A stretch of 64,000 nucleotides of DNA, from the IMG/VR virus record IMGVR_UViG_3300045988_020586, one strand, 5' to 3'. The position numbers and the translations under genes are program-made. The number at the start of each line of letters is the position of its first letter. Within the stretch, counting starts at the first letter, position 1. Of this stretch, positions 22,872 to 56,089 are shown one piece after another. The stretch is from a virus. Under the pieces are notes generated by a model. It saw only the letters and a program-made list of their open reading frames with translations. It searched no databases and was not told the origin of the DNA.

Positions 22872-22910
22872 ACCCCGACTGCTCTCACGAGTGGCCGGGG
22901 TTTATTTATT
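22872..22910. terminator. Bidirectional intrinsic terminator at the convergence of the + and - modules
   Basis: Hairpin 22872-22901 (ACCCCGACTGCTC / GAGTGGCCGGGGT, loop TCAC), preceded by an A-run and followed by TTTATTTATT. Confidence 0.6.
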
Positions 22911-22912
22911 CA

Positions 22913-23302
22913 CTAATTCAAAACTTCTTGGGAATAATATCCCCAATATATTGCGTTATCAACTACATTCTGCTTTGTTAGGATATCAAATCCACCTTGT
23001 TCTATACAAGATACTTCAGCTTTCTTTGCTTTCGGTATTTCGTACAAGACTTCAAGAAGAACTTTGCTATTAGATTCTACATCGATCTTAGAGTCAAAGT
23101 AATATTCACTCTCAGATTGTTTATATATCCAATAACGCTGTGCAACAGAAATAGGATTATAAAGAAGTCGCATATACTTCTTTTCTCCTACTGTAACTAT
23201 TTCTGAAGAATAAAGAGCATTTGTAGTTAGTAATTCCCTATTTGTTATTATATAGGGAACTACAAATATAGAGTTATTTTTAAATTTCTCTTTATTAAAC
23301 AT
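22913..23302 (-). CDS. hypothetical protein (129 aa)
   Basis: Track ORF, ATG start checked. Ends TAG 22913-22915, immediately followed by in-frame TGA 22910-22912. Confidence 0.6.
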   Translation of the reverse strand: MFNKEKFKNNSIFVVPYIITNRELLTTNALYSSEIVTVGEKKYMRLLYNPISVAQRYWIYKQSESEYYFDSKIDVESNSKVLLEVLYEIPKAKKAEVSCIEQGGFDILTKQNVVDNAIYWGYYSQEVLN

Positions 23303-23441
23303 CCAAAATTGCTGCTTCTAATTCTTCACCTGTAGCACAATTCTTAAAATCGTCTACATTAAATGTATTTTCAAGATCCATAACATTGAACGTATTTTCC
23401 AACATTTCAATATTCAAAGTTTCATTTTCCATTTTACTCAT
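23295..23441 (-). CDS. small acidic hypothetical protein (48 aa)
   Basis: ATG overlaps the upstream TGA (ATGA) and the TAA overlaps the downstream ATG. Fills the gap between two track ORFs. Below the track length cutoff. Confidence 0.4.
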   Translation of the reverse strand: MSKMENETLNIEMLENTFNVMDLENTFNVDDFKNCATGEELEAAILDV

Positions 23442-24478
23442 AGGTTTAAGGTTTCACTACCGTCTCCAGTGTAATAATCATAACTGTGGTCCCAGCTATT
23501 TGTTCTCAAGTGCCATAAATAAACGATCATAAAATCATGTATTGCCACATCTCTAGAAGTAACTTGAAATGCAGACAATTTGAATACCCTTATTTCATTG
23601 CTACCTGTTGTATCTATAGCTATGATATAGAATTCAAATCCCCACTTATCGATTTCATTATTGCTTAATTTTAGTACATTAGCCAGATACCAATATACTG
23701 CTTTCTGATAAAAACACAATTGTCTACAGTAATCAAATTCTTTCATACTGTCTTCAAAGTGCCATAACTTAGCTGTAGTTTTGATATCCATAATTGTACA
23801 CGTTCTTGTGTCGAAGTTAAATGTACAGCTATCAAGCAATGATTTACATGCAACAGTAGTATATGCTCCATGATTCAGTTCATCTATAATCCAGTAATCC
23901 CAGTTTATCTGGAACTCGTGGTATACGTGAACATTTTTATAATCGCCAGCCTTTTGTACTAATTGTTTTGCTAGTTTATGTTCTCCAACATTATGCTGAA
24001 TCTTCATAAGCTGGTCTAAGTCATACTGAGATATAAGTATTTTCTTAGACTTAATAGCTTCGATATAATCCTTATACTCTACGCTTATTTTAAGCGCTTC
24101 TGAGAGGATTTTATCTTCACTCTTGCCAACTATACTATAAGACTTGCGATAGGCCTCTGAGAGCTGTTTATTTAGCTCTATTTCAACGGTATTTATTAAG
24201 TTTTCGCAGAACTTTTGTGCCTGTGCACTTTTAGGCTTGTCGCCATCGAACAGAACGTAATCATTCCAGAATTGATCTGGTTGAAGTAGGAACTCATGTA
24301 TCATGGTTCCTTTACGTAACTGTGGCAAATCTAAGCCTTTCTCTTTACCATCCAGCATATTACGAAAATAGGCTGGCCCTTTATTTAAGAACCAGCCTAT
24401 CGCGCTATTACTAATACGCGATCCGTCTTCGTAGTATGGAATGTCGTATTCTGGTATTTTGTACTCTGGTGTAATCAT
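23438..24478 (-). CDS. PD-(D/E)XK family nuclease (RecB/Cas4-like exonuclease)
   Basis: ..IMDIKTT.. (D-x-K) and ..YCRQLCFYQ.. (QxxxY) motifs. Start set at the ATG forming TAATG with the upstream stop; the track start 24499 is a TTG. Confidence 0.65.
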   Translation of the reverse strand: MITPEYKIPEYDIPYYEDGSRISNSAIGWFLNKGPAYFRNMLDGKEKGLDLPQLRKGTMIHEFLLQPDQFWNDYVLFDGDKPKSAQAQKFCENLINTVEIELNKQLSEAYRKSYSIVGKSEDKILSEALKISVEYKDYIEAIKSKKILISQYDLDQLMKIQHNVGEHKLAKQLVQKAGDYKNVHVYHEFQINWDYWIIDELNHGAYTTVACKSLLDSCTFNFDTRTCTIMDIKTTAKLWHFEDSMKEFDYCRQLCFYQKAVYWYLANVLKLSNNEIDKWGFEFYIIAIDTTGSNEIRVFKLSAFQVTSRDVAIHDFMIVYLWHLRTNSWDHSYDYYTGDGSETLNL

Positions 24479-25410
24479 TAGCATCCTGCACAACAACAAT
24501 CACAACAACAATCATCTGAAGCTGCTTTCTTCTTAATATTCTTCAGACAATTAGCTTTACAAGAACGAGAATGAGGCTTTATAGTACCTTTTGAAGAAAG
24601 GTTCATATCCTCAAACAACTCCTCGAATGTTGTAGTAGGATAATTGTTGGCCTCCTTTACGAAAGACACAATGTTATCAAAACTACATACCTCGAAGTTA
24701 TCCTTAATGAAGTCTGTCAAAGACTTGACTTCTTTCTTGTCGTTAAGCTTGTCGTTCAACACCTCCATAATAAGAGATGGAGACATTTCTTCAAACTCGC
24801 GCCAATAGCGAATACGAGAACAACGGTCTATCAGATACTCTGATATCTCGCTATCGTCATTACAAGTAAACAAGATCATATGCTTACCTTTAGTATCAGA
24901 ACCATCCAATACCTGTAACAAGAAAGAATCATCATAACCCTCAAGAACTTTATCAAGCTCGTCGAACAAGAAACAAACACTTGTATCACCTAACTTTTCT
25001 ACAATATTTCGAAGGATATGTGGACGTATATTTTTGTCTATATTTATAATTGGAAGACCACTCTTGTTGGCAATCATCTTAGCCATTACAGTCTTACCTG
25101 ATCCTTTCAATCCTGCGAGCATTACACCAGTAAATCCGTTCTCAGACAGATTATAACTATTAATAACCTTGTCCATGAAGCGTTCGTCACGTGGTGTACA
25201 ATATACCTTAGAAGGTAAAGATAAATCACCGGATTCTTGAAGTGATATGGCATCTGTGTAGCGGTCTACAATAATATTGTAAACTGTTCCTGGAACCAAA
25301 TCATACTCAAGACCATCTGTGTTAAACTTAAAGTTTATACTGTTACCTACTTTCAAAAATTTCTTTTCCATATTTACTGATATTATAATACTCAAATATT
25401 GGTTATTCAT
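24478..25410 (-). CDS. AAA+/P-loop ATPase with C-terminal poly-Cys tail
   Basis: Walker A GLKGSGKT and Walker B CFLFDELD. Ends ..SDDCCCDCCCAGC. An alternative start is ATG 25371 (MEKKFLKV). Confidence 0.7.
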   Translation of the reverse strand: MNNQYLSIIISVNMEKKFLKVGNSINFKFNTDGLEYDLVPGTVYNIIVDRYTDAISLQESGDLSLPSKVYCTPRDERFMDKVINSYNLSENGFTGVMLAGLKGSGKTVMAKMIANKSGLPIINIDKNIRPHILRNIVEKLGDTSVCFLFDELDKVLEGYDDSFLLQVLDGSDTKGKHMILFTCNDDSEISEYLIDRCSRIRYWREFEEMSPSLIMEVLNDKLNDKKEVKSLTDFIKDNFEVCSFDNIVSFVKEANNYPTTTFEELFEDMNLSSKGTIKPHSRSCKANCLKNIKKKAASDDCCCDCCCAGC

Positions 25411-27670: not shown

Positions 27671-27693
27671 TGGATAGTTTACGGACATATCCA
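27671..27693. repeat. Hairpin related to the GTTTTACAACA-loop family (family 3)
   Basis: TGGATA / GTTTACGGACA / TATCCA followed by GGTCGGGG. Same architecture as 43969-43989 and 44049-44069. Confidence 0.4.
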
Positions 27694-27846
27694 GGTCGGG
27701 GACTTCATTAGTACATCCCAGATCCAACTTAAGTATGGTTCACTCATGAAATCTGGCGCCCCAGGAGAACCGGGGTGCAATAAAAAGAGTGTGCACCTAT
27801 CCTCACGGACCGGAGTTTCCTGCATATATTTGTACCAATGAAATTG

Positions 27847-27943
27847 TGGCTATGCTAGGAATCGAACCTAGCAGAATGGACAAAAGAAAATACACTAAAA
27901 ATAAACCATTCTTGTCATGTGTCTCACGACACCCCGACTAGCC
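27847..27943 (-). ncRNA. 97-nt aberrant tRNA-like element
   Basis: Canonical T-arm CTAGG-TTCGATT-CCTAG. Acceptor GGCTAGT/CATAGCC pairs 5 of 7. D-like arm GTGTC-GTGA-GACAC has a 4-nt loop. A 7-bp stem AGAATGG/CCATTCT closes a 26-nt AU-rich loop. No assignable anticodon. Confidence 0.4.
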
Positions 27944-28139
27944 TTATTGGAGGCATTTCACCTCCAAAGGGTAACTGAATTACCTAGCTCCACCAACACC
28001 CTTTTATGGCAGTATTACCTCCCTTGGGTGTATCCACTTGTCGTATAGTTTGACACTCCTGCTATATAGACGGTATAAAAACCATCTACCGGATTTCATA
28101 CAATCAAGTAGTATTTCTATTTCTTCAGGCGTAAATCCC

Positions 28140-33767: not shown

Positions 33768-34430
33768 CTAAGCCGCCATTCGCATTTTATTTGCGTTTGG
33801 CAACAGAATACGTCCTGTCTTCTTGCGATGGTCTTTAAGGTTTGTACAAACAAGATTACTGCGTTTTGCCTTTACCTTATTTGTCTCTTTACGAGCCATC
33901 TTCATGACTTTACTGTGTTCTGGAAGTTTGTTTACGCCTCCATACTTAGCAGTTTCGCCATTATCTTTTATCTGAGCAATTTCTTGCTCGTGGAACAACT
34001 CGTCAGTAGAAGAGAACCTACCAATAAGTTGTAATTTGTCATATTTAGCGACAACTAAGTCTCTAATACGTTCTTCAGCCGCGACTCTCTCTGCCTCCCA
34101 AACCGGGAATTGCTGCGAGTAGAATAAGTCGTCTTTCTTAACCGGACATGGGTTCTTTCGTTCCCATTTCTGCAGCTTGTGCTGAACATAGCCTTCCATG
34201 AGCTCGATGCGGTTAAGCTTTGTAACCTTTCTGCGAGATTCAATTTTGATTGAATTACGCTTGAGCAGTACGAACCAAGGTCTCTTACGAGAAAGACCGT
34301 GGATGCAATGTTCTTTACAGAACTTAGAAGTAGTTCCGTGAGACTTGTTAAAGTCCTTAAGCCACTTCTCTTTAGTGTCACGATAAGTTTTAACATAATC
34401 GTCCAAATATTGATTATTCTGGGTATTCAT
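33768..34430 (-). CDS. hypothetical basic protein (220 aa)
   Basis: Track ORF with ATG start; ends at TAG. Confidence 0.6.
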   Translation of the reverse strand: MNTQNNQYLDDYVKTYRDTKEKWLKDFNKSHGTTSKFCKEHCIHGLSRKRPWFVLLKRNSIKIESRRKVTKLNRIELMEGYVQHKLQKWERKNPCPVKKDDLFYSQQFPVWEAERVAAEERIRDLVVAKYDKLQLIGRFSSTDELFHEQEIAQIKDNGETAKYGGVNKLPEHSKVMKMARKETNKVKAKRSNLVCTNLKDHRKKTGRILLPNANKMRMAA

Positions 34431-37571: not shown

Positions 37572-39731
37572 ATCCTTTTTGATATCGTTATTGATTAACT
37601 AACGATATGATTTTTAAAATATGGTGTATTTTGGCTACACCTTTGCCGTTGTTTATTGAATAAAGCAACGCTGATACGAAGATACTCGGTTACTACTTTG
37701 CTTACTTAGTTTTCTAAAGAAAGTTCTACTATTGTAGACGCTTTTCATAGACTTAGCTACACTATTTCTACTACAACAATAGGGTAGTAGACTTGTAGCA
37801 GGAATTACGTACGTATGACGTAATTAACATTTACTGGATTATCCAGGCCCATCGTCTAAAGCTTTGAATGCTTTCTTTGCATAATCAAATGCTGAACTAT
37901 TTTCTGCTATTTTGTTCACGTTTTTTCTAACTTAACTATTCTAATCTTCGTTGGTGAAATTTTGCAGAGCAACTAACACTCATAGAATCTTAGAATCCTT
38001 ATAACCCACGAAAATATGTAGAATCTCGGTCGTATTTCCCTTACTATACTTACAAGATATTCCTACACGATTGTTATTAAAGCAGATGATCTCTACTGCT
38101 AACTTAAAAGCGACTGTCAGCTAGGTCTCCTTACTGCGGTACTCGGCTTATGGCATGTACCCAGCGGTTGGTTATCGGAATGTCTCAGGATCAAACCCAT
38201 CACAGACTTTACGGCTTTTTACATCTTTGCTGATGTTTGCAATTTTTCTGTACCGGTATTACTACCTCCTATTTATAGTGCACGAATATTGGGAATTCAA
38301 CCCATACATTTCATCTTGTCACCCACTTATAAACGTAATATACATGTATAGAGACAGTATACACATATAATATACACAGTCGTTTTACAACATAGAATAT
38401 AAGCTGCCCATCAATTTCCTGTATTGCTTCGAACCTTTGTGTTTACATATACTGTTGCACAGTATACTTTAGCATGGTTGGCATATCGGTTGGCACTCGA
38501 TTTCTTTACCTCAAGTCCTTACTTACAACGTAAGATACACTCTATAAAGGGACATCAATTTTTTGTTAAACATGTTACATTTTAAACTTTCTAGATTTTC
38601 ATAGTCTATATCTTTTGCATACAACATACGCATATATAATATACCAGCTTACTACTCTGTAGAGACTATATAATATTGCATATCATAATACAAATAGACT
38701 ATTGGTCTAAATTGTTTTGGATGAAAGTGGAGGTCAAATGATCCTGGCTGGATATATCTCGAATCAACTTTCTACCTATTTTGCTATTTCTTATTCTAGG
38801 ATAGCTTTCCATCAATTTTCTTTGACTGTAACGGAGTCATCGATCATAGTCTCATGAACGATTTAATTTTCATGGAAATTGGCTGTAAGTTCGGATTGCC
38901 TAACATCCTAATTGCAACTGGAATAGATTTTCACCGCGATCTTCACCCGCGTACGATACTCCCGTAGAGCTTCGATTAAGGGACTGCCCAACCCTTGTGC
39001 TTGTTTTACTTTTATATACCGCATAAACAAGAAAAGCCTGGCGGTCTACCATGAACTCAGACGTCTTACACCTCATCCCTGGCACCCCTTCAATGGAGTT
39101 GTGACGAATCGAACGTCAAGGACTATATGCCAACGTATTCACCATACGTCCCGTGAGTATTATCCTCACGATATTGCGTCTTAGATAAATTTTTCGGCCT
39201 TTATACTAGCTTTGGACACTAGAAACACTACCTACGGCTTAATAATACTTCTATATTGTTTGGGATATCCTCGGTTCTTCCAGCACCATGCACCATACCA
39301 TGTATGCAATTCTGTTCACCTACTGGGGACCAATATAGTTCATCTCGTGTAACGTTCGTGTATGCTTAGTATTATCACATACAATTCCGATACGGTTCAT
39401 TATGCCCTTCTTGGGACTTATGCGTTTTTAGATTACACAGCCTCATCCAGCTTGTCTCCAGACGGTTCTCACAAGTCCAGCTGTGTAATCTATAGGAGTT
39501 GATACAACGCTACTCCTACCTATATCAAACCGTTTCAATGTTTGATACATTTCATCCTACCTTTTGAGTGATCTCGCCCTGCAAGACAGGGTTAACATAT
39601 TCTCGGATCCAGTTTAATTTGATTGAGTTTTTCTTCTAGCTCCTTCGCGGGGGGATGTTCCAGAATAGTACGTAGACTAATGGGATCTACTATATGTACT
39701 TACCTAATTATAGCACATAGGGTTCTTATGT
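37572..39731. other. 2,160-nt ORF-free, hairpin-dense region (candidate ncRNA locus, origin or regulatory region)
   Basis: No ORF of 75 aa or more on either strand, even with TAG as sense. Many perfect inverted repeats, e.g. 37803-37825 (8 bp), 39431-39490 (11 bp) and 39577-39591. AT-rich core at 38560-38720. Confidence 0.6.
37672..37686. repeat. Family 1 motif TGATACGAAGATACT, copy D
   Basis: Exact 15-mer shared with 45143, 45314 and 45412. Lies about 100 nt upstream of the ATG of 36978-37571. The flanking stem is imperfect. Confidence 0.5.
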
Positions 39732-42214: not shown

Positions 42215-42772
42215 TTAAACTTTTAAGTTATTTTTAATTTTCCTACGAGTGCGGCTTAATGCTGCTTTTATAGTGCCTGTAGGAGTTTTTAGCACTTTGC
42301 TAATTTCGTCAACTGATAGATCCTCTACGTAAAACAAATTAAAAATCTTTTGTGTCTTTTTAGGGAGCTTTTCAAACTCCTTTAAAAGAAATTCGTGTTC
42401 AAGAAGATTGACAAGATCTTCTTCTTCCGAAGAACTAGTTAATTCTACGGGTAGTCGGCCCATATCTTCTCCTAATTCCATAGATTTCTCCTTTATCTTT
42501 CGTAAATAATCTATAGCCGTTCTATTAGCTATAATTCTCAGCCATCCGCCAAAAGACGAATAATCTGTGAATGTCGAGAGTTTCTGGTGAACCTTAAGAA
42601 ATACAACATTTGTAAGATCTTTAGCTTCATCCATATCATTCACGTAATGAAAGAGTACGTTGTCAACGAACTCCTTATAACGGTTAAACAATTTATTAAA
42701 CGCAAGCTCATTTCCCTTCTGAGCTTCTTTTATGGTCTCAATCTCAGATTGAGTGATACGCTGATACTCCAT
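42215..42772 (-). CDS. ECF-type sigma-70 family RNA polymerase sigma factor
   Basis: Region 2-like ..VVFLKVHQKLSTFTDYSSFGGWLRIIANRTAIDYLRK.. and region 4-like ..KIFNLFYVEDLSVDEISKVLKTPTGTIKAALSRTRRKI.. Confidence 0.75.
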   Translation of the reverse strand: MEYQRITQSEIETIKEAQKGNELAFNKLFNRYKEFVDNVLFHYVNDMDEAKDLTNVVFLKVHQKLSTFTDYSSFGGWLRIIANRTAIDYLRKIKEKSMELGEDMGRLPVELTSSSEEEDLVNLLEHEFLLKEFEKLPKKTQKIFNLFYVEDLSVDEISKVLKTPTGTIKAALSRTRRKIKNNLKV

Positions 42773-42801: not shown

Positions 42802-43218
42802 CTACCCCTGATAAAACGGAAGGTCATATACCATCTTTTGACGGTACAATGACCAAACGTTGTTGACGAAATTGTTGAAAAGAATCAATTTTAAATCCTT
42901 TCCGCCGGTCTTCATTTCTACTTTTTCAAGTAGTCCTGAACCAATACGCATACGAGTTGTAAGTGTTTTGAACTTCATAGAATTGGTTAGGACTATTGTT
43001 TTCATAATCCAATCACCAACTCTACGCAAATGTTCATTACAACAGTATTCGTATATACAATCTTCGTCTAGGCTATCTCCAGCACAGAATACGTGCGCTC
43101 CATCAGTGAAGCCCTTTTTAAGGCGATTGTGGAACCAGTTAATCACATCTTCTACGTTGTCACTTTCATAGCCTAACAGACTAGCTCTGTAAATTAGCAT
43201 TTTAGGGAAATACTCCAT
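42802..43218 (-). CDS. hypothetical protein (138 aa)
   Basis: Track ORF with ATG start; ends at TAG. Confidence 0.55.
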   Translation of the reverse strand: MEYFPKMLIYRASLLGYESDNVEDVINWFHNRLKKGFTDGAHVFCAGDSLDEDCIYEYCCNEHLRRVGDWIMKTIVLTNSMKFKTLTTRMRIGSGLLEKVEMKTGGKDLKLILFNNFVNNVWSLYRQKMVYDLPFYQG

Positions 43219-43752: not shown

Positions 43753-43761
43753 AACTAATAG

Positions 43762-43820
43762 GAAGAAGCTGGGGAATCGAACCCCAGACCCAAACCAAAA
43801 GGCGACGGTACCAACTTCTT
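43762..43820 (-). ncRNA. 59-nt tRNA-like minihelix: acceptor plus T-arm, no D or anticodon arms
   Basis: T-arm TGGGG-TTCGATT-CCCCA. Acceptor AAGAAGT/GCTTCTT has 7 bp including one G-U. Only 27 nt lie between the acceptor 5' strand and the T stem. Confidence 0.35.
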
Positions 43821-43968
43821 TCTTCTCTCCACTTAGGTAGGAAGCACCTAGACTAAACTTACGCTACGCAAGTATAGTCTACAATGTTATTTACATTGCC
43901 GTTTAATTTATAGTATAGTGCTTAATGTATTTATCTCCTCTGTCTGTCAAAACCAAACACGCCCGTGT

Positions 43969-43989
43969 AGGCAGTTTTACAACATGCCT
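43969..43989. repeat. Family 3 hairpin, copy 1 (loop GTTTTACAACA)
   Basis: AGGCA / GTTTTACAACA / TGCCT followed by AGGTTG. Confidence 0.55.
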
Positions 43990-44048
43990 AGGTTGCCACG
44001 TTTTCGCGAACAAAAATGTGATCTGTCATACATAGACACAAACAGAAT

Positions 44049-44069
44049 AGACAGTTTTACAACATGTCT
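44049..44069. repeat. Family 3 hairpin, copy 2 (loop GTTTTACAACA)
   Basis: AGACA / GTTTTACAACA / TGTCT followed by GGGTTG. A compensatory G-to-A and C-to-T change relative to copy 1 keeps the stem paired. Confidence 0.55.
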
Positions 44070-44180
44070 GGGTTGTTGTTCAGATTGAACACTCTCTGCG
44101 GGAGGGTGTGGACGTGAGGGGAGTCGACAAAATCTTCAAGTTCATTGCAACTATTCCACTCTGCTCCACGTTATATTTAT

Positions 44181-44798
44181 ATGGAACAGATAAAGAAATA
44201 TATGCAAAACAGAAAGTTAATAACTTTCGTTTGTGATTGTTGTGGAAAAGAAGCTCAAAAACCTCTTTCCGAATACAACAGAAACAAGAAACTTGGTAGG
44301 AAGAATTTTTGTAGTAGAAGTTGTGCAATTCGTTATGCTAATAAAAATAAATTACATACATTTACAGATAAATGTAGAGAACATCTTTTAAGTATTTGCA
44401 ACAATCAAATAGACGAATATACCGATTTTAGATATATCCTTAGAAGTGTCTATAAAAGATTTAAAGAAGTAGATATAGATTTAGAGTATCTAAAACAACT
44501 TTGGGAGACACAAAAAGGAATTTGCCCTTATACTGGTATAAAATTAAAGCTTCCAACATATAAAAGCCATAACTTCTATTTTGATTGTGCATCTTTAGAC
44601 AGAATAGATTCTTCTAAAGGCTACGTTAAAGGAAATGTTCAATTCATATCATTACCTATAAATTATATGAAATCTACTAAATCAGATATTGAAATCAGAC
44701 AATTTCTTAAACAAATTTCTTCTTACACTTCACATTTCTGCGAAGATGAGACTATCTCTTCACCTAAAGAGGTGTTGGGCGCTCGAGCTGGTAATTAA
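44181..44798 (+). CDS. HNH-family endonuclease, free-standing and opposite in orientation to its neighbours
   Basis: ..CASLDRIDSSKGYVKGNVQFISLPIN.. and N-terminal Cys pairs CDCCGKE..CSRSC. Start set at ATG 44181. Confidence 0.7.
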   Translation: MEQIKKYMQNRKLITFVCDCCGKEAQKPLSEYNRNKKLGRKNFCSRSCAIRYANKNKLHTFTDKCREHLLSICNNQIDEYTDFRYILRSVYKRFKEVDIDLEYLKQLWETQKGICPYTGIKLKLPTYKSHNFYFDCASLDRIDSSKGYVKGNVQFISLPINYMKSTKSDIEIRQFLKQISSYTSHFCEDETISSPKEVLGARAGN

Positions 44799-45137
44799 GA
44801 AGACTATACTTCTCCAGTAGTCGTTGCACTTTCTTGTGGTGTACCACAAGCTTAGCTCAGGGTTAGCATGAACAATACTAGCTTTGAGCTATTATTGTTT
44901 TTAGCCTTCCTTGAATTCACCCAATATGGGCTCGGTAAGAACCCCTGTCCAAACAGATTATTTCATACACACTGTACATTTGTTTTGTAAATGTCCTGAT
45001 GATCAGTCAGAACATTTGATTTAAACCACTTTAGGTGCGTTCTAAGGCATTTTTGCGACACTTGTGGTTAATTACTCCACTCGGTGACATACTCTGCCTC
45101 AGAATGCATTAGAACATGGTTGAAAATATATAGGAAT

Positions 45138-45163
45138 CCTCATGATACGAAGATACTTAGAGG
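45138..45163. repeat. Family 1 hairpin, copy A
   Basis: CCTC / ATGATACGAAGATACTTA / GAGG. Confidence 0.5.
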
Positions 45164-45304
45164 GCTATATTCAGCATTTTTGATACATTTTGCAGGGTTC
45201 GATTAACTTTCTCAGAGCAACCAAATCTCCCCGATACAAAGATACGCACAAAACATATTGTTTGATCTACTGTCCCAATTTATTGTGTGGGTTCACATCT
45301 CTTC

Positions 45305-45337
45305 TTCTCATCGTGATACGAAGATACTTGATGAGAA
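45305..45337. repeat. Family 1 hairpin, copy B
   Basis: TTCTCATC / GTGATACGAAGATACTT / GATGAGAA (8-bp stem). Confidence 0.6.
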
Positions 45338-45406
45338 TGTTAATTCATTCTGAGATTCCTTCACTGTCTCGTCCCTCGGGACCTCCTGTAGTACTTGAGA
45401 ATCTGT

Positions 45407-45431
45407 GTACGTGATACGAAGATACTTGTAC
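45407..45431. repeat. Family 1 hairpin, copy C
   Basis: GTAC / GTGATACGAAGATACTT / GTAC. Lies 12 nt beyond the stop of 45443-45937. Confidence 0.55.
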
Positions 45432-45442
45432 TAGAAGAAGAA

Positions 45443-46740: not shown

Positions 46741-47232
46741 CTAATCCTCCTTTGGTATTATGTTAGTACTGGAGGACTGCACAATCTGCACATGCTTACC
46801 ATCAATAATGGTATCAATTGTTTCCGTGTTAGGAATGTCTGGCGGAGTCAAGATATTGTATTGGTCTGATTTATCGGGCAAGTTCATATACACATGCTTG
46901 TTAACCTCGAACTCATGGGATATACTTCCCTTAGTTATTGGTTCCCCAGATTTCTCTAGGACCGATACAACGTCACGCATAACCTTTTCAGGTATGCTGA
47001 AGAATACAGAATCCTGATGTCTCCACTGACCTTCCGTCTTCTGATATGTCAATGCATCAGAATAGTCGGCGAATGTAGGATTGTCAATTTCCTGCATCAT
47101 CTTTGATACCATGAGCGAATCATCGTGTCTGATTTCGCTCTTTGTCTGCTTCACATAGTCACATGATGACACTGCGAAAGCTACAATAAGCACGATTAAG
47201 CACATGCTAAGCTTTTCAAATAATCTCTTCAT
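46741..47232 (-). CDS. putative lipoprotein (163 aa)
   Basis: Signal plus lipobox-like ..LIVLIVAFAVSSCDY.. ATTATCAAA leader. Ends at TAG. Confidence 0.55.
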   Translation of the reverse strand: MKRLFEKLSMCLIVLIVAFAVSSCDYVKQTKSEIRHDDSLMVSKMMQEIDNPTFADYSDALTYQKTEGQWRHQDSVFFSIPEKVMRDVVSVLEKSGEPITKGSISHEFEVNKHVYMNLPDKSDQYNILTPPDIPNTETIDTIIDGKHVQIVQSSSTNIIPKED

Positions 47233-47542: not shown

Positions 47543-47668
47543 AAATGGCAGTTTTTCGTCTTGTTTTTATCCCTTTCTTAGATACTGCCAAACTCTACCC
47601 AGGACGCTATAATGCGTGATTTTATGCAGACTTGAACTGCTATGTAGGCCTTTAACCTAATAAATCTC

Positions 47669-47690
47669 GGGGACAGTATAAACTGCCCCC
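47669..47690 (-). terminator. Intrinsic terminator-like hairpin after 47702-47923
   Basis: GGGGACAGT-ATAA-ACTGCCCC, 11 nt past the TAG stop. On the - strand it is followed by GAGATTTATT. Confidence 0.5.
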
Positions 47691-47701
47691 TTGAAATGCA
47701 A

Positions 47702-47923
47702 CTAAATATATTTTTCCTCCTCCTCTTCTATTATATCATTCCACGTAAAGTAGAATAATAGAAGGCCAAAAATCAAAGCAACTACCAACCATATTATTAT
47801 AAGACCAATAGCAAGTGTACTTATCTCTCGCACATTACCTAATGCCTTTATAAGGCTAAGTAGCGGATAAAATGAAGCTAACATAATCAATAAGCTTCCA
47901 CCTAAATATATTAATCTACTCAT
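47702..47923 (-). CDS. small membrane protein (73 aa)
   Basis: Two hydrophobic segments and an acidic tail EEEEEKYI. Ends at TAG. Confidence 0.5.
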   Translation of the reverse strand: MSRLIYLGGSLLIMLASFYPLLSLIKALGNVREISTLAIGLIIIWLVVALIFGLLLFYFTWNDIIEEEEEKYI

Positions 47924-48188
47924 GATCTAGTAATTGTTGAGTTCTACTAAAATTGAAGTCGTGCACAAAATAACTCTCTAGACTATTGCTAAGATATTCT
48001 TTTGTAGACCCAACTTCATATTCACTTTGAGACAATATACATACATCATCATTAAGGGCTTCATCAAACTCTAACAACGCGATATTATTATCTCTACATA
48101 CTTTCTTGAGCTTTCTTACGTCGCTATGAAAACGACGCAACTCAAGTTCAGATTCGGACATTTGTCCGTTCTTTCTACGTTTTGCCAT
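47916..48188 (-). CDS. hypothetical protein (90 aa)
   Basis: Track ORF with ATG start; overlaps its neighbours by a few nt. Confidence 0.5.
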   Translation of the reverse strand: MAKRRKNGQMSESELELRRFHSDVRKLKKVCRDNNIALLEFDEALNDDVCILSQSEYEVGSTKEYLSNSLESYFVHDFNFSRTQQLLDHE

Positions 48189-50920: not shown

Positions 50921-50952
50921 ATATATAATTATTGATTAATATACATAATAAA

Positions 50953-50982
50953 AACGTGCCTATCTTCACAGACCAGCACGTT
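50953..50982. repeat. Family 2 hairpin, copy 1 (loop CTATCTTCACAGACCA)
   Basis: AACGTGC / CTATCTTCACAGACCA / GCACGTT. Confidence 0.65.
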
Positions 50983-51460
50983 GAGCATCGAAATAAAACC
51001 TACGTCACTTAGTAAAAGATGATGTAAGAAAATCGGTATGGTAAAAAACAAATTGAAGTGGTTACTGGACTCGAACCGTCGCTATGTTGCGCTTTACTAT
51101 AGCCAAGTACAATATCCATATAATGCATTTGTACATAGTATACCCTCTTGCTTTAGCAAGTGTATAATAACCACTATCCGTCTCTCCAGATTGTCATAGA
51201 GACTGGGTCTACATTTGACAGATTGCACCTTTTGCAAATAGGCTGTAGTTACCGTATCTCAGTTTTACACGTAAACCTATTGCCTATAGACGACTCACCC
51301 TCTGTGTTCTACAATCGACATCTTATAGCTTTGCAAGTACCATAAGCACGTGTTGTAGTCATGGGCTTGGGACCATGAACGCCACATTACTGCCTACGAT
51401 TTATCACGTTAGCGTAGGCGCTCCGTCATCCTAGTTTATATACCGCATGAGATAACGGTT

Positions 51461-51492
51461 TAATACAACTATCTTCACAGACCATTGTATTA
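51461..51492. repeat. Family 2 hairpin, copy 2
   Basis: TAATACAA / CTATCTTCACAGACCA / TTGTATTA. Confidence 0.65.
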
Positions 51493-51609
51493 TGAGGTCT
51501 ATTCGCGCTTTGAGTAATGAATCAGACTACACCATGATGCAACATGTGTAGTTTCGTCTAGGTCTCATCAGTGATGATTTTAGACTCTCCCTAGCTGAGT
51601 TTAAATAAA

Positions 51610-51641
51610 ACATACCACTATCTTCACAGACCATGGTATGT
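51610..51641. repeat. Family 2 hairpin, copy 3
   Basis: ACATACCA / CTATCTTCACAGACCA / TGGTATGT. Confidence 0.65.
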
Positions 51642-51791
51642 GCCAAACCTATTGTTGTTACACTTAACAACTACAACCTACATCCTAACTAAAAAACCTG
51701 ACATTTATTTGATTATTATACGTCTTTATTTGTCTTTCCAAATGCCAACGCTTATTTATACTCTTGCGTATAGAGTTATGTTATTATACAT

Positions 51792-52357: not shown

Positions 52358-52401
52358 TGAAAAAAGGGGTTTGGGAGATTGTTTTACCAATCCCCATCCC
52401 C
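52358..52401 (-). terminator. Intrinsic terminator after 52403-52921
   Basis: Hairpin GGGGTTTGGGAGATTG-TTTTAC-CAATCCCCATCCCC at 52366-52401, directly after the TAG stop. On the - strand it is followed by a 6-nt U-run (52360-52365). Confidence 0.6.
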
Positions 52402-52402: not shown

Positions 52403-52921
52403 CTAGTCTTCGTCGTCTGTTGAGTAGTCGAAATTGTCGCTTATCATATCAGCCAGGCGGACTTTTAGTTTCTTTACTTCTGCTTGCTCATCATCAACAT
52501 TGCCAAGGTAAGTATTGGCAAGGCTTGAGTAAGTGTGCTCCCCGTCAGTGATTGATTTTTCTTTTCCGTCAGTAAGTTCAGAAATTGTGTAATCAAACGT
52601 GCTAAAGCGCGCCTTTTTACCTACAAACTTTGCGGACAATTCTTTTAACGCTTCATCCTGTGCCTTTTCTGTATGCTTATTACCTTCTAGCACTCTATCA
52701 AAATTAAGAATGCAAGAATAAGACTTTCCGACAACTGCGCCGGCATCAGCGAAAGCCGCCAAAGAAAGGAAATCTTTATCCTCCTTATTATCGGAAGAAT
52801 TAGAAATTGCGTAAGTTACACGCAATGCTACTCTGAATGTTTCGTTATCCTCATTAAATGAGTATAACTTTTCATTGAGTGATACGCTGTTAATTACAGC
52901 GATTTCGTTAACTTTTTTCAT
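52403..52921 (-). CDS. hypothetical acidic-tailed protein (172 aa)
   Basis: Start set at ATG 52921 (MKKVNEIAV..); the track ORF extends to 53044 through structured sequence. Ends ..DYSTDDED then TAG. Confidence 0.55.
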   Translation of the reverse strand: MKKVNEIAVINSVSLNEKLYSFNEDNETFRVALRVTYAISNSSDNKEDKDFLSLAAFADAGAVVGKSYSCILNFDRVLEGNKHTEKAQDEALKELSAKFVGKKARFSTFDYTISELTDGKEKSITDGEHTYSSLANTYLGNVDDEQAEVKKLKVRLADMISDNFDYSTDDED

Positions 52922-53754: not shown

Positions 53755-54030
53755 CTATTCTGCATCTGCAGTATTATGTTCGGCTTTATCTGGCTCAATA
53801 CCAGGAGTGCATCCAGTGCCAATAATGTCTCCGATTCTATCAAGTGTAGTAGATCTATCTGGCTCTGCGAGTCTTATAAACTCAGATGCTTCCATCATTT
53901 TGTATACTCCACGGTATTTGTAGAGTATGGTATCTACCAATTTTCCAGAAGCTAATTGAAATTGACCGGTGCCGATATATATTACTTTTACATCACTATT
54001 TCTATTTAATATAAATCTATCATTCTCCAT
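53755..54030 (-). CDS. hypothetical protein (91 aa; 18 codons longer if TAG is read through)
   Basis: Ends at TAG. With TAG as sense, the frame runs through three more TAG to TAA 53701-53703, which forms TAATG with the next gene start. Confidence 0.5.
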   Translation of the reverse strand: MENDRFILNRNSDVKVIYIGTGQFQLASGKLVDTILYKYRGVYKMMEASEFIRLAEPDRSTTLDRIGDIIGTGCTPGIEPDKAEHNTADAE

Positions 54031-54035
54031 ACACG

Positions 54036-54356: not shown

Positions 54357-54373
54357 ATTTTAATCTCCTATTT

Positions 54374-54637
54374 TTAAAATCTCCACCATCTAGTAGTCTC
54401 TTTCTTTAATTCATTGAGACACGTCTCATATTTGTCTTTCCAATAACTAGTGTGCTCTTCCTGGCGTGCCAACTGTCTCTGCAGCAGTGTTATCTGAGCA
54501 TCTCTAGCTTCTAACGCACTCTCATTATCTATTGACTTACTATTCTGTACAAGCTTTTCGTAATCTTTTCTATCTAGAATTACATAATCCCTAAGCTGTC
54601 TAATCAATTGAACTAAGTCTAATTCCTTCGTCTCCAT
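54374..54637 (-). CDS. hypothetical coiled-coil protein (87 aa)
   Basis: Track ORF with ATG start. Confidence 0.5.
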   Translation of the reverse strand: METKELDLVQLIRQLRDYVILDRKDYEKLVQNSKSIDNESALEARDAQITLLQRQLARQEEHTSYWKDKYETCLNELKKETTRWWRF

Positions 54638-54657
54638 ATATAATATCCAATAACATT

Positions 54658-54888
54658 TTAGTTGTTTCGGGATAATCCGAGAACATCTTTATCATCTATT
54701 CTGCTATCCCCGAACACTTCTTTAAATTTGTAGAACTCTCCTTTTTCATCAAGCTGCAGCGCTAATTGTAATATCTGTCTCGTTGGTGCTGCTTCCTCTC
54801 CTAGATTTTCTAGTTCCTTCAGTAATGTCTGATACGCATCCCTCTGTCCTGGATCCATCTTTTCCTGTCTCTTCATCTTCTGTGTCAT
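54658..54888 (-). CDS. hypothetical protein (76 aa)
   Basis: Track ORF with helical-looking text. Its first 140 nt overlap 54749-55087 in another frame. Confidence 0.45.
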   Translation of the reverse strand: MTQKMKRQEKMDPGQRDAYQTLLKELENLGEEAAPTRQILQLALQLDEKGEFYKFKEVFGDSRIDDKDVLGLSRNN

Positions 54889-55087
54889 TTAAAGCGTTTG
54901 TACCCATTTTTACTTTCTTTTTGAAGTTGTCATATCTTTCAATAACTTCATCAGCTGCCACATCCTTATCCTTAGGATCGTTTGGGTTATATAATACTTC
55001 TACTGGCCCAAAGCTTTTTAATATCTCTAGAAGCTCTTTGAAGTCCTCTTCATCTGCTCCGTCATTAAGTACTTGCATTGTTTCCAT
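54749..55087 (-). CDS. hypothetical acidic protein (112 aa as tracked; the last ~45 aa are doubtful)
   Basis: The N-terminal ~65 aa are protein-like. The 3' part overlaps 54658-54888 and is S/T/R/G-rich. Confidence 0.45.
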   Translation of the reverse strand: METMQVLNDGADEEDFKELLEILKSFGPVEVLYNPNDPKDKDVAADEVIERYDNFKKKVKMGTNALNDTEDEETGKDGSRTEGCVSDITEGTRKSRRGSSTNETDITISAAA

Positions 55088-55174
55088 CTTTTTGGATTAT
55101 TTTGTCTGTATTCTTTTATAGCTTTCCCTATAAAGGTACACGCTTCGATAGGCGTGAGTACAATTGGTTTTGGG

Positions 55175-55462
55175 TTAAGCTGCGATCGTCTCATTTGCTT
55201 CGTTTAAAGCGTTTACAACTTCAGCTTTGGTAGTCTTTGTTTTAGACTGCTCAATAAGCTTTTGTACAAGTTCGTCCTTATGAGGATTACCTTTTTGTGC
55301 ATACATGTGCATAAGGATTGCTGTAGCACTTGCAAACTCTCTAGAGTTTTTGTCAAGTGTGTCTATAAGTTCCTCAAGTTCTTCAATTGTATATTTTCCT
55401 GGCTTATGCAAGAACTTTCCATCTTTGTCGTACAGGTTACTATTTTTGCTAATTTTTCCCAT
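55175..55462 (-). CDS. hypothetical protein (95 aa)
   Basis: Track ORF with ATG start. Confidence 0.5.
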   Translation of the reverse strand: MGKISKNSNLYDKDGKFLHKPGKYTIEELEELIDTLDKNSREFASATAILMHMYAQKGNPHKDELVQKLIEQSKTKTTKAEVVNALNEANETIAA

Positions 55463-55633
55463 TATTACTTACTCCTTTAAGTATTACCCAACCAGCTGTA
55501 ACAGCTATTATTGGGATGATTAAAAATATAGTTATTATATCAAATGGATTCATCATTGTCTGGTTCATAAAACCCTAATCTTCTTCCGTTTTTCTCGGCT
55601 CTTTCTATTATTTCCGCAGCTCTTAAAAAGTCT

Positions 55634-56089
55634 TTATCTTTTGCTATTTTGCTCAGCATGGGCTATGTATTTTGTGCACTCTTCCTCTATAATTTCACCA
55701 TCGTCGTTACGTGTTAAATGTGTGTATTTCATCTTTGATCTGTTGAATTTAAACGCTCTAAACGCCTTATCTCGCTCCTATTTGTCATCATATCTATGGA
55801 TGTATTTCATCATTTGTGTAGCATTTACAGATCCTGCTACCCCAAGATTACATAGGTTTTTAATAAAGCTCATAGCCCCGTCTTCTCCAAACTTATGCTT
55901 TAGCATACTATACTCTTTAAGGCTCTTCTAGAACCACTAATTGTCTATATCGTATACTGGATCTTGCTCAACAATATATGCTATATTTATTGGCACACCG
56001 TGCACAAAGAAGTATTTGCACTACTATGTACAAGGTTTATTTTGATATTGTAGAGATAAGAAGTCAGCGTAATATAGTACGGCGCTCAT
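55634..56089 (-). CDS. hypothetical protein (151 aa) needing 5 TAG read-throughs; missed by the standard-code track
   Basis: ATG 56089 lies 12 nt after the upstream stop; TAA at 55634-55636. All 152 codons checked on the reverse complement. In-frame TAG at 56024-56026, 56021-56023, 55937-55939, 55928-55930 and 55778-55780. Text ..KYFFVHGVPINIAYIVEQDPVYDIDN.. Confidence 0.65.

What the first reader, a model, noticed from the sequence alone, without database searches (positions are those of the whole stretch)
22910..56089. TAG appears to have two meanings in one genome: stop in many leftward genes, sense in others
Seen: the leftward genes with 3' ends at 22913, 33768, 42802, 46741, 47702, 52403 and 53755 stop at TAG. 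For 47702 and 52403, a GC-rich hairpin plus U-run follows within 11 nt and 1 nt (47669-47690; 52358-52401), so TAG looks like the true end. At 22913 and 46741, a TGA follows within 1-2 codons as a backup. Yet leftward gene 55634-56089 needs 5 TAG read-throughs, and every rightward gene stops only at TAA or TGA. Established: stop-codon recoding in phages has been proposed as a temporal switch, with the suppressor expressed late. Inference: the early/late code boundary here does not coincide with the strand switch. TAG-terminated early genes would gain C-terminal extensions late in infection.
Basis: partly seen in the sequence, partly recalled or inferred. Interest (0 to 1): 0.7.

Follow-up and report, generated by a model that had tools for sequence, protein, structure and literature searches.

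The report
TAG: stop early, glutamine late
This is a crAss-like gut phage in which TAG ends about one in six replication-module genes yet encodes glutamine in late genes and in two small genes beside the strand switch; that two-code layout is already described, but its amber-suppressor tRNA gene escaped the tRNA finders because a mobile intron splits its anticodon.

Summary
The window is a Burzaovirus-like crAss phage, about 88% identical in DNA to cr124_1 and cr7_1.

- **TAG as sense:** The rightward giant genes are open only if TAG is sense (153 and 60 in-frame TAGs, 51-58% of Gln codons).
- **TAG as stop:** 47 leftward genes hold 238 CAA/CAG and no in-frame TAG. The 48 leftward genes end with TAA 30, TGA 10 and TAG 8. 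In relatives these TAG stops swap with TAA, never with CAA/CAG.
- **The exception:** Leftward gene 55634-56104 has six in-frame TAGs, not five. It is conserved in 28 relatives with repeated TAG/CAR swaps, so it is a real gene with TAG=Gln. A rightward neighbour, 57658-57888, has three.

The code therefore changes gene by gene within about 1 kb of the strand switch. Dual coding in this lineage is already published (Yutin 2021, Borges 2021, Pfennig 2022). The 'backup TGA' idea has no statistical support.

New here: the tRNA(CUA) gene is split between U35 and A36 by a 986-nt group-I-like intron that carries an HNH endonuclease. A phage permuted tmRNA gene is also split by an intron. Temporal use of the two meanings is inferred, not shown.

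The parts
897..17024 (+). Giant late ORF (5375 codons), open only if TAG is sense; 153 in-frame TAGs against 145 CAA/CAG
17015..22864 (+). Second giant late ORF (1949 codons); 60 in-frame TAGs against 44 CAA/CAG; homologue of cr124_1 gp02
22913..23302 (-). Leftward gene ending in TAG, followed at once by TGA and a terminator hairpin
33768..34430 (-). Leftward gene ending in TAG; the same codon is TAA in cr124_1 and cr7_1
42802..43218 (-). Leftward gene ending in TAG (TAG in 8 of 8 relatives), 29 nt upstream of the ECF sigma-factor gene 42215-42772
46741..47232 (-). Leftward gene ending in TAG (18 of 18 relatives); TAG CTA TGA overlaps the start of the next gene
47702..47923 (-). Leftward gene ending in TAG (TAA in 16 of 24 relatives); hairpin 47690-47669 lies 11 nt downstream
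47916..48188 (-).
52403..52921 (-). Leftward gene ending in TAG (TAA in 3 of 7 relatives); hairpin 52401-52358 plus U6 starts 1 nt after the stop
53755..54030 (-). Leftward gene ending in TAG, with two more in-frame TAGs and then TAA downstream; in 8 of 11 relatives this codon is sense (in cr124_1 the ORF then ends at the next TAG, 3 codons on)
55634..56104 (-). gp45-like gene (156 aa) with six in-frame TAGs (56098, 56026, 56023, 55939, 55930, 55780); the only leftward gene found that needs TAG as sense; ATGA overlap with the upstream gene
56101..56496 (-). First leftward gene (gp44-like, HExxH motif); only one Gln codon, so uninformative about the code
56497..56799 (.). Divergent intergenic region at the strand switch, with 18-nt repeats at 56537-56603
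57658..57888 (+). gp41-like gene (76 aa) with three in-frame TAGs, conserved in relatives; it lies between TAG-free genes and upstream of the suppressor tRNA
59349..59383 (+). Exon 1 of the amber-suppressor tRNA(CUA), ending ...CUCU
59384..60369 (+). 986-nt group-I-like intron between U35 and A36; holds the HNH endonuclease ORF 59414-60316 (no TAG, TGA stop); conserved core about 60200-60369
60370..60406 (+). Exon 2 of tRNA(CUA); the joined 72 nt fold as a cloverleaf with anticodon loop CUCUAAC
43768..45011 (-). Permuted tmRNA gene (tag GNVNNIVDYTCVA*), interrupted in its T-loop by an 813-nt group I intron (44940-44128)

Best explanation
**What it is.** The window comes from a TAG-to-glutamine (code 15) crAss-like phage of the Burzaovirus type, which writes its genes in two dialects.

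- **Leftward module.** This replication and regulation module (about 22.9-55.6 kb) avoids TAG inside genes and uses it as an ordinary stop in 8 of 48 genes. A standard-code Bacteroidota host can translate it unaided.
- **Late genes.** The giant virion-RNAP-block ORFs and the genes from 61.9 kb onward use TAG for more than half of their glutamines. They can be completed only when a phage amber-suppressor tRNA is available.
- **The suppressor.** It sits at the usual place, near the 5' end of the rightward strand. Its gene is split inside the anticodon by a mobile group-I-like intron with an HNH homing endonuclease, so mature suppressor needs transcription and then splicing.
- **TAG-rich small genes.** Two small conserved genes flank the divergent control region: 55634-56104 leftward and 57658-57888 rightward. 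Both are as TAG-rich as late genes. Their products should therefore appear only once suppressor has built up, whenever they are transcribed.

**Shown versus inferred.**
- Shown: both meanings of TAG, the gene-by-gene boundary, and the split tRNA gene.
- Inferred: the timing, the splicing, and the fate of TAG-terminated genes once suppressor is present.
For: **Identity of the phage.** The window shows 87-88% DNA identity and full synteny with cr124_1 and cr7_1 (Suoliviridae, Burzaovirus).

**TAG as sense.**
- Coverage by long ORFs over 1-22 kb rises from 6% to 100% when TAG is read as sense.
- The two giant ORFs hold 153 and 60 in-frame TAGs.
- TAG exchanges with CAA/CAG at six or more positions of the gp45-like gene across 28 relatives, and also in the gp41-like gene.

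**TAG as stop.**
- 47 leftward genes have 238 CAA/CAG and no in-frame TAG.
- Stops in the 48 leftward genes are TAA 30, TGA 10, TAG 8.
- The orthologous codon is TAA at 33768, 47702, 47916 and 52403, and TAG is kept at 42802 and 46741. It is never CAA/CAG.
- Terminator hairpins follow three of the TAG stops.
- In cr124_1 the single 'in-frame' TAGs of leftward genes all lie at the annotated C-termini.

**Suppressor tRNA.**
- The joined exons fold as a perfect cloverleaf (-29.3 kcal/mol) with anticodon CUA.
- The same intron lies at the same position in relatives. Their joined exons are called tRNA(CTA) by ARAGORN, and by inspection of the printed sequences they match the intronless suppressors of L014 and L009, apart from small differences.
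- The intron core shows P3-P7-P8 topology: 95% of cells are paired, against 32-50% in slid controls, and seven pairs carry compensatory changes.
- The intron ORF has an HNH domain.

**Literature.**
- Stop-codon reassignment mostly in late genes: PMC7886860.
- Early genes compatible with the standard code, and a temporal model: 10.1101/2021.08.26.457843.
- Sup-CTA tRNA at the 5' end of the code-15 strand: 10.1101/2022.06.29.495998.
Against: - There are no expression, splicing or proteomic data, so the temporal order is borrowed from other phages.
- The window's own tRNA exons have non-canonical D- and T-loops (ACCAGCUA, GGCAGCA). ARAGORN does not call the joined sequence, and Rfam reported no tRNA at the unspliced locus. 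This copy could be impaired, and a second suppressor could lie in the roughly 40 kb outside the window.
- Rfam's group I model does not hit the tRNA intron, and I could not assign P1 or the guide sequence.
- The TAG-rich gene 57658-57888 lies upstream of the suppressor on the same strand. Simple 'suppressor first, recoded genes after' ordering therefore does not hold.
- TAG stops show no excess of nearby backup stops and no distinctive +4 context. Nothing in the sequence itself tells a stop TAG from a sense TAG.
Confidence: 0.78

Rival explanations
1. The whole genome uses a single code (code 15). The leftward 'TAG stops' are glutamine codons, and the true proteins run on to the next TAA/TGA, as the RefSeq annotation of cr124_1 and cr7_1 assumes.
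For: The cr124_1 annotation reads through TAG in gp48, 49, 51, 53, 58, 63 and 66. Once suppressor is present some read-through must occur. No sequence context separates stop TAGs from sense TAGs.
Against: - At four positions the orthologous codon is TAA, and it is never CAA/CAG.
- Sequence after the TAG is not kept as coding. There are indels right after 33768, the tail overlaps the next gene at 42802 and 46741, and terminator hairpins start 1-11 nt after two of the stops.
- 238 Gln codons in 47 genes include no TAG, although TAG is the majority Gln codon in late genes.
Confidence: 0.07
2. Gene 55634-56104 is a decaying pseudogene or a chance ORF, and the leftward strand is purely standard code.
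For: It has no Pfam or PHROG match and no structural neighbour. It is the only leftward gene with in-frame TAG.
Against: - The reading frame and length are kept in 28 relatives.
- No TAA or TGA appears in any copy.
- TAG exchanges with CAA/CAG.
- About 120 homologues of 153-180 aa exist down to 41% identity, with invariant Cys, Tyr and Gly positions.
- AlphaFold2 gives pLDDT 90.5.
- An ATGA overlap couples it to the upstream gene.
Confidence: 0.02
3. The meaning of TAG is set by position or context on the mRNA, not by time. This would resemble ciliates in which a stop codon terminates only near the 3' end of the message.
For: Three TAG stops sit directly before terminator hairpins. TAG-rich and TAG-terminated genes coexist on one strand and could share transcripts.
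Against: - The +4 base at 232 sense TAGs (A 39%, G 28%, T 19%, C 14%) matches that after CAA/CAG. The nine stop TAGs show no distinct pattern.
- Most TAG stops lie inside operons, just before the next gene, not at mRNA ends.
- From general knowledge, no bacterial mechanism is known that senses distance to the 3' end.
Confidence: 0.05
4. The two dialects are an assembly chimera of a standard-code phage and a recoded phage.
For: The relatives are mosaic: only about 60% of each 20-kb locus aligns, at 86-97% identity. One related contig of 162 kb holds two suppressor-tRNA loci of different types.
Against: The same gene order, the same TAG-rich gp45-like and gp41-like genes and the same TAG-free replication block occur in two RefSeq genomes and more than 20 independent IMG/VR contigs of 100-105 kb.
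Confidence: 0.01

Closest known systems
TAG-to-Gln (code 15) 'dual-coded' crAss-like phages: Suoliviridae/Burzaovirus cr124_1 and cr7_1 and the ~105-kb TAG-recoded lineage (Yutin 2021 PMC7886860; Borges 2021 bioRxiv 10.1101/2021.08.26.457843; Pfennig 2022 bioRxiv 10.1101/2022.06.29.495998; proteomic proof of code 15 in crAss-like phages, PMC9523058)
   Same: - Same gene order at 87-88% DNA identity.
- Late genes full of in-frame TAG.
- Replication block readable in the standard code.
- tRNA(CUA) near the 5' end of the recoded strand.
- TAG aligns with Gln.
   Different: - The published rule is that the code switch follows the strand switch. Here it is gene by gene within about 1 kb on both sides.
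- The early block is not fully 'dual-coded': 17% of its genes end in TAG.
- The suppressor gene is split by an intron and is invisible to tRNA finders.
Group I introns in bacterial tRNA anticodon loops (cyanobacterial tRNA-Leu(UAA) and tRNA-fMet, the latter with a homing endonuclease; Azoarcus tRNA-Ile); review PMC3984707
   Same: - Insertion inside the anticodon loop after a U.
- The intron ends in G.
- P3-P7-P8 core with CAGACUAAA...AUAGUC motifs.
- Intron-containing and intronless alleles coexist.
- An endonuclease ORF lies inside.
   Different: - The host gene is a phage amber suppressor. The 2014 review states that all phage group I introns then known were in protein-coding genes.
- Rfam RF00028 does not recognise it.
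- About 90% of the intron is ORF, and the core overlaps the ORF's 3' end.
Permuted (two-piece) tmRNA, Rfam RF04321; and, from memory, the group I intron in the T-loop of the Clostridium botulinum ssrA gene
   Same: - The cr124_1 copy scores 63.3 bits against RF04321.
- The window copy is called a permuted tmRNA once the intron is removed.
- The intron sits in the T-loop.
   Different: - It is phage-encoded, with an unusual tag (GNVNNIVDYTCVA).
- A link to amber suppression (rescue of ribosomes that read through TAG into mRNA ends) is my hypothesis and is untested.
Context-dependent stop codons of some ciliates and trypanosomatids (recalled from memory)
   Same: One codon serves both as sense and as stop within one genome.
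   Different: There the choice depends on position in the mRNA within one cell state. Here the two uses are partitioned between gene sets, and no context signal was found.

Membership tests
Code-15 (TAG=Gln) dual-coded crAss-like phage | Late or structural genes are open reading frames only when TAG is read as sense | tested here: met
   ORF coverage of 1-22 kb rises from 6% to 100%; 153 and 60 in-frame TAGs
Code-15 (TAG=Gln) dual-coded crAss-like phage | In-frame TAG aligns with glutamine codons in homologues | tested here: met
   TAG/CAA/CAG swaps at six or more positions of the gp45-like gene and in the gp41-like gene. There are occasional E, K, Y or M, reachable by one or two base changes
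Code-15 (TAG=Gln) dual-coded crAss-like phage | Replication/early block is translatable with the standard code | tested here: met
   47 genes, 238 CAR Gln codons, no in-frame TAG; normal gene density
Code-15 (TAG=Gln) dual-coded crAss-like phage | Phage-encoded tRNA with anticodon CUA | tested here: inconclusive
   A tRNA(CUA) is present only as a split gene. The joined exons form a cloverleaf with CUA, but they have non-canonical D- and T-loops and ARAGORN does not call them. Homologues with canonical exons are called
Code-15 (TAG=Gln) dual-coded crAss-like phage | Code switch coincides with the switch of coding strand | tested here: not met
   At 22.9 kb the two coincide. At 56.6 kb the switch is offset and mosaic: leftward 55634-56104 has 6 TAGs; rightward 56800-57658 is TAG-free, and 57658-57888 has 3 TAGs
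Code-15 (TAG=Gln) dual-coded crAss-like phage | Sequence relationship to Crassvirales | tested here: met
   87-88% DNA identity and synteny with Burzaovirus genomes
Group I intron | Conserved core helices P3, P7 and P8 in the canonical order, forming a pseudoknot, supported by covariation | tested here: met
   40 pairs, 95% of cells paired against 32-50% in slid controls; compensatory changes in P2.1 (3 pairs), P3, P7, P8 and P2
Group I intron | 5' exon ends in U and the intron ends in G | tested here: met
   Window...CUCU|UUUG ... AAUG|AAC. The L069/L098/L045 variants end in A, so the rule is not kept in every homologue
Group I intron | Match to the curated covariance model (Rfam RF00028) | tested here: not met
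   No hit at E up to 10 on 59330-60420 or 60150-60410. The other two introns of the window do hit
Group I intron | P1 pairing between the 5' exon and an internal guide sequence | tested here: inconclusive
   By inspection of the sequences I found only a 3-bp candidate (GGA) and no convincing guide sequence
Group I intron | Intronless alleles that match the joined exons (mobility) | tested here: met
   By inspection, the joined L100 exons match the L014 suppressor apart from a 1-nt D-loop indel, and the joined L103 exons match L009 apart from one base
Group I intron | Self-splicing activity | not testable with these tools
   Needs in vitro transcription and splicing, or RNA-seq
Elongator tRNA | Conserved D-loop GG and T-loop T-Psi-C elbow contacts | tested here: not met
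   The D-loop is ACCAGCUA and the T-loop GGCAGCA. The same exon type occurs in L004, L015 and L022, where the substitutions lie only in loops or preserve pairs
Permuted tmRNA (RF04321) | Match to the model or to a dedicated finder | tested here: met
   The cr124_1 orthologue scores 63.3 bits against a gathering score of 47. ARAGORN calls the window copy a permuted tmRNA after in-silico removal of 44940-44128

The most novel reading that the evidence does not exclude
The phage carries a splicing-gated code switch.

- **Suppressor supply.** The only amber suppressor must self-splice from a transcript that also encodes a homing endonuclease, which sets the delay before UAG becomes readable.
- **Timer genes.** Two small, TAG-rich, conserved genes flank the divergent control region (55634-56104 and 57658-57888). 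They would be transcribed with the early or regulatory genes but translated only once suppressor accumulates, and so act as translational timers for the middle-to-late transition.
- **Clean-up.** The phage's own permuted tmRNA rescues ribosomes that read through TAG-terminated messages into terminators.

A narrower form is more likely, at about 0.55: intron-split suppressor genes explain why some TAG-recoded crAss-like genomes appear to lack a suppressor tRNA.
Probability: 0.2. Interest if true: 0.75.

Novelty: new member of a known kind. Interest (0 to 1): 0.42.

Why it matters
The headline claim, one codon with two meanings in one phage genome, is established for crAss-like phages, so it adds little by itself. 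Three details are useful.

1. **Annotation.** Applying code 15 to a whole genome, as in the RefSeq records of cr124_1 and cr7_1, wrongly extends at least seven early proteins past genuine TAG stops. Block-wise tools that snap the code boundary to the strand switch will break the gp45-like gene.

2. **Missing suppressors.** Reviews note that some recoded Crassvirales seem to lack a suppressor tRNA, which leaves the mechanism open. Here the suppressor is present but hidden, because an endonuclease-bearing intron splits its anticodon. This is a simple, checkable explanation that may apply widely.

3. **Regulation.** Three features suggest concrete experiments on how a phage changes the code of a cell within minutes and copes with the side effects. 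They are TAG-rich small genes at the control region, a suppressor that needs splicing, and a phage tmRNA.

Tried and rejected
- **Suppressor tRNA search.** ARAGORN and Rfam at gathering and E-value thresholds found no CUA tRNA in the window. It turned up only after I compared the window with relatives found by a 3'-half pattern scan.
- **Source genome.** An exact 47-mer from the window's right end has no match in IMG/VR.
- **Rfam group I model on the tRNA intron.** No hit.
- **Function of the gp45-like protein.** No Pfam or PHROG family. There was no significant Foldseek match in PDB or BFVD despite a confident model.
- **Promoters.** The Bacteroidota -33/-7 motif has 0 matches against 2 expected. 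Sigma-70-like sites are no more frequent than in shuffles. No k-mer is shared among the 20 leftward intergenic regions. I therefore could not define transcription units or temporal classes.
- **Backup stops.** No enrichment after TAG stops.
- **+4 context.** No difference between stop TAGs and sense TAGs.
- **Other leftward genes with sense TAG.** None found. The candidate ORFs in the gaps (51404-51712, 47567-48115, 27679-27957) are non-coding or start after the TAGs.
- **tRNA-like 58585-58658 as suppressor.** Rejected: it has a 3-bp anticodon stem and an 8-nt loop without CUA.
- **P1/guide sequence of the tRNA intron.** Could not be assigned.

Full report
**What the window is.** Protein and DNA searches place the window among crAss-like phages of the family Suoliviridae, genus Burzaovirus. 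It shares 87-88% DNA identity and complete synteny with the RefSeq genomes cr124_1 (NC_055899.1) and cr7_1 (NC_055895.1). IMG/VR holds 26 further relatives of 50-105 kb.

The layout is as follows.
- 1-22864 runs rightward and holds two giant ORFs.
- 22910-56496 runs leftward and holds replication and regulatory genes. cr124_1 annotates exonuclease, primase, helicase, RecA-like protein and DNA polymerase here, and Pfam finds an ECF sigma factor at 42215-42772.
- From 56800 the genes run rightward again.

**Checking the observation.**
- All seven TAG stops are as described. An eighth TAG-terminated gene (47916-48188) and a conserved 39-aa membrane ORF (55449-55568) also end in TAG.
- The hairpins after 47702 and 52403 lie at the stated coordinates and are more stable than shuffled sequence (z -4.2 and -2.5). 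The gene ending at 22913 also has a terminator.
- Gene 55634-56089 does contain five in-frame TAGs. The conserved start is the ATG at 56104, which overlaps the stop of the upstream gene (ATGA), so the count is six.

**TAG as sense.**
- With TAG as stop, long ORFs cover 6% of 1-22 kb. With TAG as sense they cover 100%.
- ORF 897-17024 has 153 TAGs against 145 CAA/CAG. ORF 17015-22864 has 60 against 44. TAG is therefore the majority glutamine codon in late genes.
- The gp45-like gene (55634-56104) keeps its frame and length in 28 relatives, each with five to nine in-frame TAGs. TAG alternates with CAA/CAG at six or more positions, and no copy has TAA or TGA in frame.
- About 120 database homologues of 153-180 aa extend the family down to 41% identity. 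AlphaFold2 gives a confident model (pLDDT 90.5). The gene is real and needs TAG read as an amino acid, most simply Gln.
These are Q in L015 and E, Q and K in L026.

**TAG as stop.**
- The 48 leftward genes of at least 62 aa end in TAA 30, TGA 10 and TAG 8. The 47 other than the gp45-like gene contain 238 CAA/CAG and no in-frame TAG.
- The zero is partly by construction, because the ORFs were called under the standard code. The comparative test is independent of that.
- At 33768, 47702, 47916 and 52403 the orthologous codon in relatives is TAA.
- At 42802 and 46741 it remains TAG, in 8 of 8 and 18 of 18 relatives.
- At 53755 it is a sense codon in 8 of 11 relatives. In cr124_1 the ORF then ends at the next TAG three codons on.
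- At no stop position is the orthologous codon CAA or CAG.
- In cr124_1 every single 'in-frame' TAG of a leftward gene sits at the annotated C-terminus. The RefSeq annotation has therefore read through genuine stops.

**Where the boundary lies.**
- At 22.9 kb the change of code coincides with the convergent strand switch.
- At 56.6 kb it does not. The second leftward gene is TAG-rich. The first two rightward genes are TAG-free (4 and 6 CAR Gln), the third is TAG-rich, and the two homing-endonuclease ORFs are TAG-free (10 and 7 CAR). TAG reappears from 61905.
- Near the divergent region the code is therefore a property of individual genes.
- This departs modestly from the published statement that the code switch follows the strand switch.

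**What does not hold.**
- Backup stops after TAG are not enriched. The distances to the next TAA/TGA are 0, 1, 17, 23, 25, 26, 44 and 52 codons (median 24), against a median of 13.5 after TAA/TGA stops.
- The base after TAG does not differ between sense and stop uses.
- I found no promoter motif that would define temporal classes.

**The suppressor tRNA.**
- ARAGORN and Rfam find no tRNA(CUA) in the window, although cr124_1 and cr7_1 have one just upstream of the dUTPase gene.
- A scan of IMG/VR for the 3' half of that tRNA, followed by comparison of the hits with the window, showed that the gene is split.
- Exon 1 is 59349-59383 and ends ...CCGGGCUCU. Exon 2 is 60370-60406 and begins AACCCCGG.
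- The two exons are separated by 986 nt that contain a 300-aa HNH endonuclease ORF (59414-60316, Pfam PF01844).
- The joined 72 nt fold without constraints into a cloverleaf with anticodon loop CUCUAAC.
- The same insertion at the same position (between U35 and A36) occurs in at least eight other contigs. Joined exons were tested for four of them (L100, L103, L036 and L045), and ARAGORN calls all four tRNA(CTA).
- By inspection, the joined L100 and L103 exons match the intronless suppressors of L014 and L009, apart from a 1-nt D-loop indel and one base respectively.

**Is the insertion a group I intron?**
- The last 170 nt or so of the insertion are its most conserved part.
- A hand-built structure places the ORF-bracketing helix first. 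It is followed by P2.1, P3, P4, P6 and P7 (CAGACUA), the 3' strand of P3, P8, a 6-nt J8/7, and the 3' strand of P7 (UAGUC).
- This structure is 95% paired, against 32-50% in slid controls, and seven pairs carry compensatory changes.
- The 5' exon ends in U and the intron ends in G.
- Against membership: Rfam RF00028 does not match, and I could not assign P1.
- I therefore call it group-I-like.

**A caveat on the window's own tRNA copy.**
- Its D-loop and T-loop are non-canonical, and ARAGORN rejects even the joined sequence.
- The same exon type is kept in L004, L015 and L022. The only changes are in loops or preserve pairs, for example U1.G72 becoming U1-A72.

**A phage tmRNA.**
- The ORF-poor stretch 43753-45442 contains an Rfam group I intron (81 bits).
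- Comparison with cr124_1 shows that this intron interrupts the T-loop of a permuted tmRNA gene (GGGGU|...G|UCGACUCCCC).
- The intronless cr124_1 copy matches RF04321 at 63.3 bits.
- After in-silico removal of 44940-44128, ARAGORN calls a permuted tmRNA with tag GNVNNIVDYTCVA*.
- For 47702 and 52403 a terminator comes before any in-frame TAA/TGA. Read-through by the suppressor would then leave ribosomes at an mRNA end, which is the substrate of tmRNA. This link is my inference.

**How it most likely works.**
- Shown: the two uses of TAG, their partition among genes, and the presence and position of a split tRNA(CUA) gene.
- From the literature: crAss-like phages express regulatory and replication genes first and structural genes late. 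Recoded stop codons are thought to hold back late proteins until a phage suppressor is made. Code 15 has proteomic support in crAss-like phages (abstract of PMC9523058, listed).
- Inferred: early on, host RF1 terminates at every UAG, so the TAG-free leftward genes are made and the TAG-rich genes are not. After transcription and splicing of the suppressor, UAG is read as Gln in competition with RF1. The late genes and the two small TAG-rich genes then become translatable. TAG-terminated genes are extended, or tagged by tmRNA, if they are still being translated.

**Comparison with what is known, and novelty.**
- Dual use of TAG in one crAss-like genome, with late genes recoded and early genes compatible with the standard code, is established, including for this approximately 105-kb lineage.
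- As stated, the finding is a new member of a known kind.
- Among the papers I searched I found no report of either the gene-by-gene boundary or the intron-split suppressor.
- A 2014 review states that all phage group I introns then known lay in protein-coding genes.
- Reviews still list recoded Crassvirales without a detectable suppressor as an open problem.
- My literature searches found no description of a split suppressor or of a tmRNA role in these phages. The library is incomplete, so priority cannot be claimed.

Noticed in passing
window 59349-60406 (+): The amber-suppressor tRNA(CUA) gene is split between U35 and A36 by a 986-nt group-I-like intron. The intron carries an HNH endonuclease ORF (59414-60316). 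ARAGORN and Rfam both miss the gene. The exons have non-canonical D- and T-loops.
   Followed up: yes
window 43768-45011 (-): A phage-encoded permuted tmRNA (tag GNVNNIVDYTCVA*) is interrupted in its T-loop by an 813-nt group I intron (44940-44128; Rfam RF00028, 81 bits). Intronless copies in cr124_1 and cr7_1 are annotated as SsrA, and the cr124_1 copy matches RF04321. A role in rescuing ribosomes after amber read-through is possible but untested.
   Followed up: partly
window 60436-61908 (+): The dUTPase gene is split by a third intron (about 60696-61614). This intron contains an HNH_3 endonuclease ORF (60769-61596) and an Rfam group I hit (61316-61557). Relatives L030, L037, L067 and L104 lack this 919-nt segment, and in L030 the dUTPase reading frame is continuous.
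   Followed up: partly
window 58585-58658 (+): A tRNA-like element (Rfam tRNA, 37.9 bits) has normal acceptor and T arms (the D stem has only 3 pairs) but a 3-bp anticodon stem and an 8-nt loop, GAUAUAAA. It is conserved in L022 and L028 (GAUACAAA). Its function is unknown, and it is not a CUA suppressor.
   Followed up: partly
window 59125-59196 (+): A tRNA-Met(CAU) with a C1:A72 mismatch, the hallmark of bacterial initiator tRNA, lies just upstream of the split suppressor.
   Followed up: no
loci L004, L010, L013, L014, L018, L021, L022, L027, L028 (about 6.5-7.5 kb): Relatives carry further odd tRNA-like genes with 6-nt or 8-nt anticodon loops next to the suppressor. One type (loop AACAGA) shows compensatory changes in its anticodon stem.
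   Followed up: no
loci L030 2898-3467, L037 3619-4190, L067 744-1310: Other close relatives have a different arrangement. A tRNA(CUA) with loop CCCUAAA and an odd T-arm comes first, then a small (~135 aa) HNH ORF, and then a duplicated canonical 3' half of the suppressor. This looks like a second, independent endonuclease invasion of the same gene.
   Followed up: partly
window 51520-51601 (-): A RAGATH-1 hammerhead ribozyme (Rfam RF03152, 71.9 bits) lies inside an ~870-nt stretch without ORFs (50921-51791).
   Followed up: no
window 42215-42772 (-): A phage-encoded ECF-type sigma-70 family factor (Pfam Sigma70_r2 and r4) lies directly downstream of a gene whose TAG stop is conserved in all 8 relatives.
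   Followed up: no
window 56483-56603: Tandem and dispersed 18-nt repeats (consensus ATAGCTTACTATACTGTA, 3.6 copies) fill the divergent intergenic region at the strand switch. They may be operator or promoter elements, and the motif is essentially confined to this region.
   Followed up: partly
window 37572-39731: A 2.1-kb stretch of the leftward block has no convincing ORF on either strand and no Rfam hit. It holds only short dispersed repeats (CATCAATTT...). cr124_1 annotates nothing here.
   Followed up: partly
window 55449-55568 (-): A 39-aa ORF encodes a predicted single transmembrane helix. Its stop overlaps the start region of the next gene, and the stop is TAG in 26 relatives and TAA in 1.
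   Followed up: partly
L001 (cr124_1) gp48, gp49, gp51, gp53, gp58, gp63, gp66: The RefSeq annotation used code 15 throughout. It therefore extends these early proteins past TAG stops by 1-23 codons.
   Followed up: yes
window 56101-56496 (-): The first leftward gene, translationally coupled to the TAG-rich gp45-like gene, contains an HExxH motif (FAHESFHAAVD), which suggests a small metalloprotease. It matches only PHROG 1365, of unknown function.
   Followed up: no
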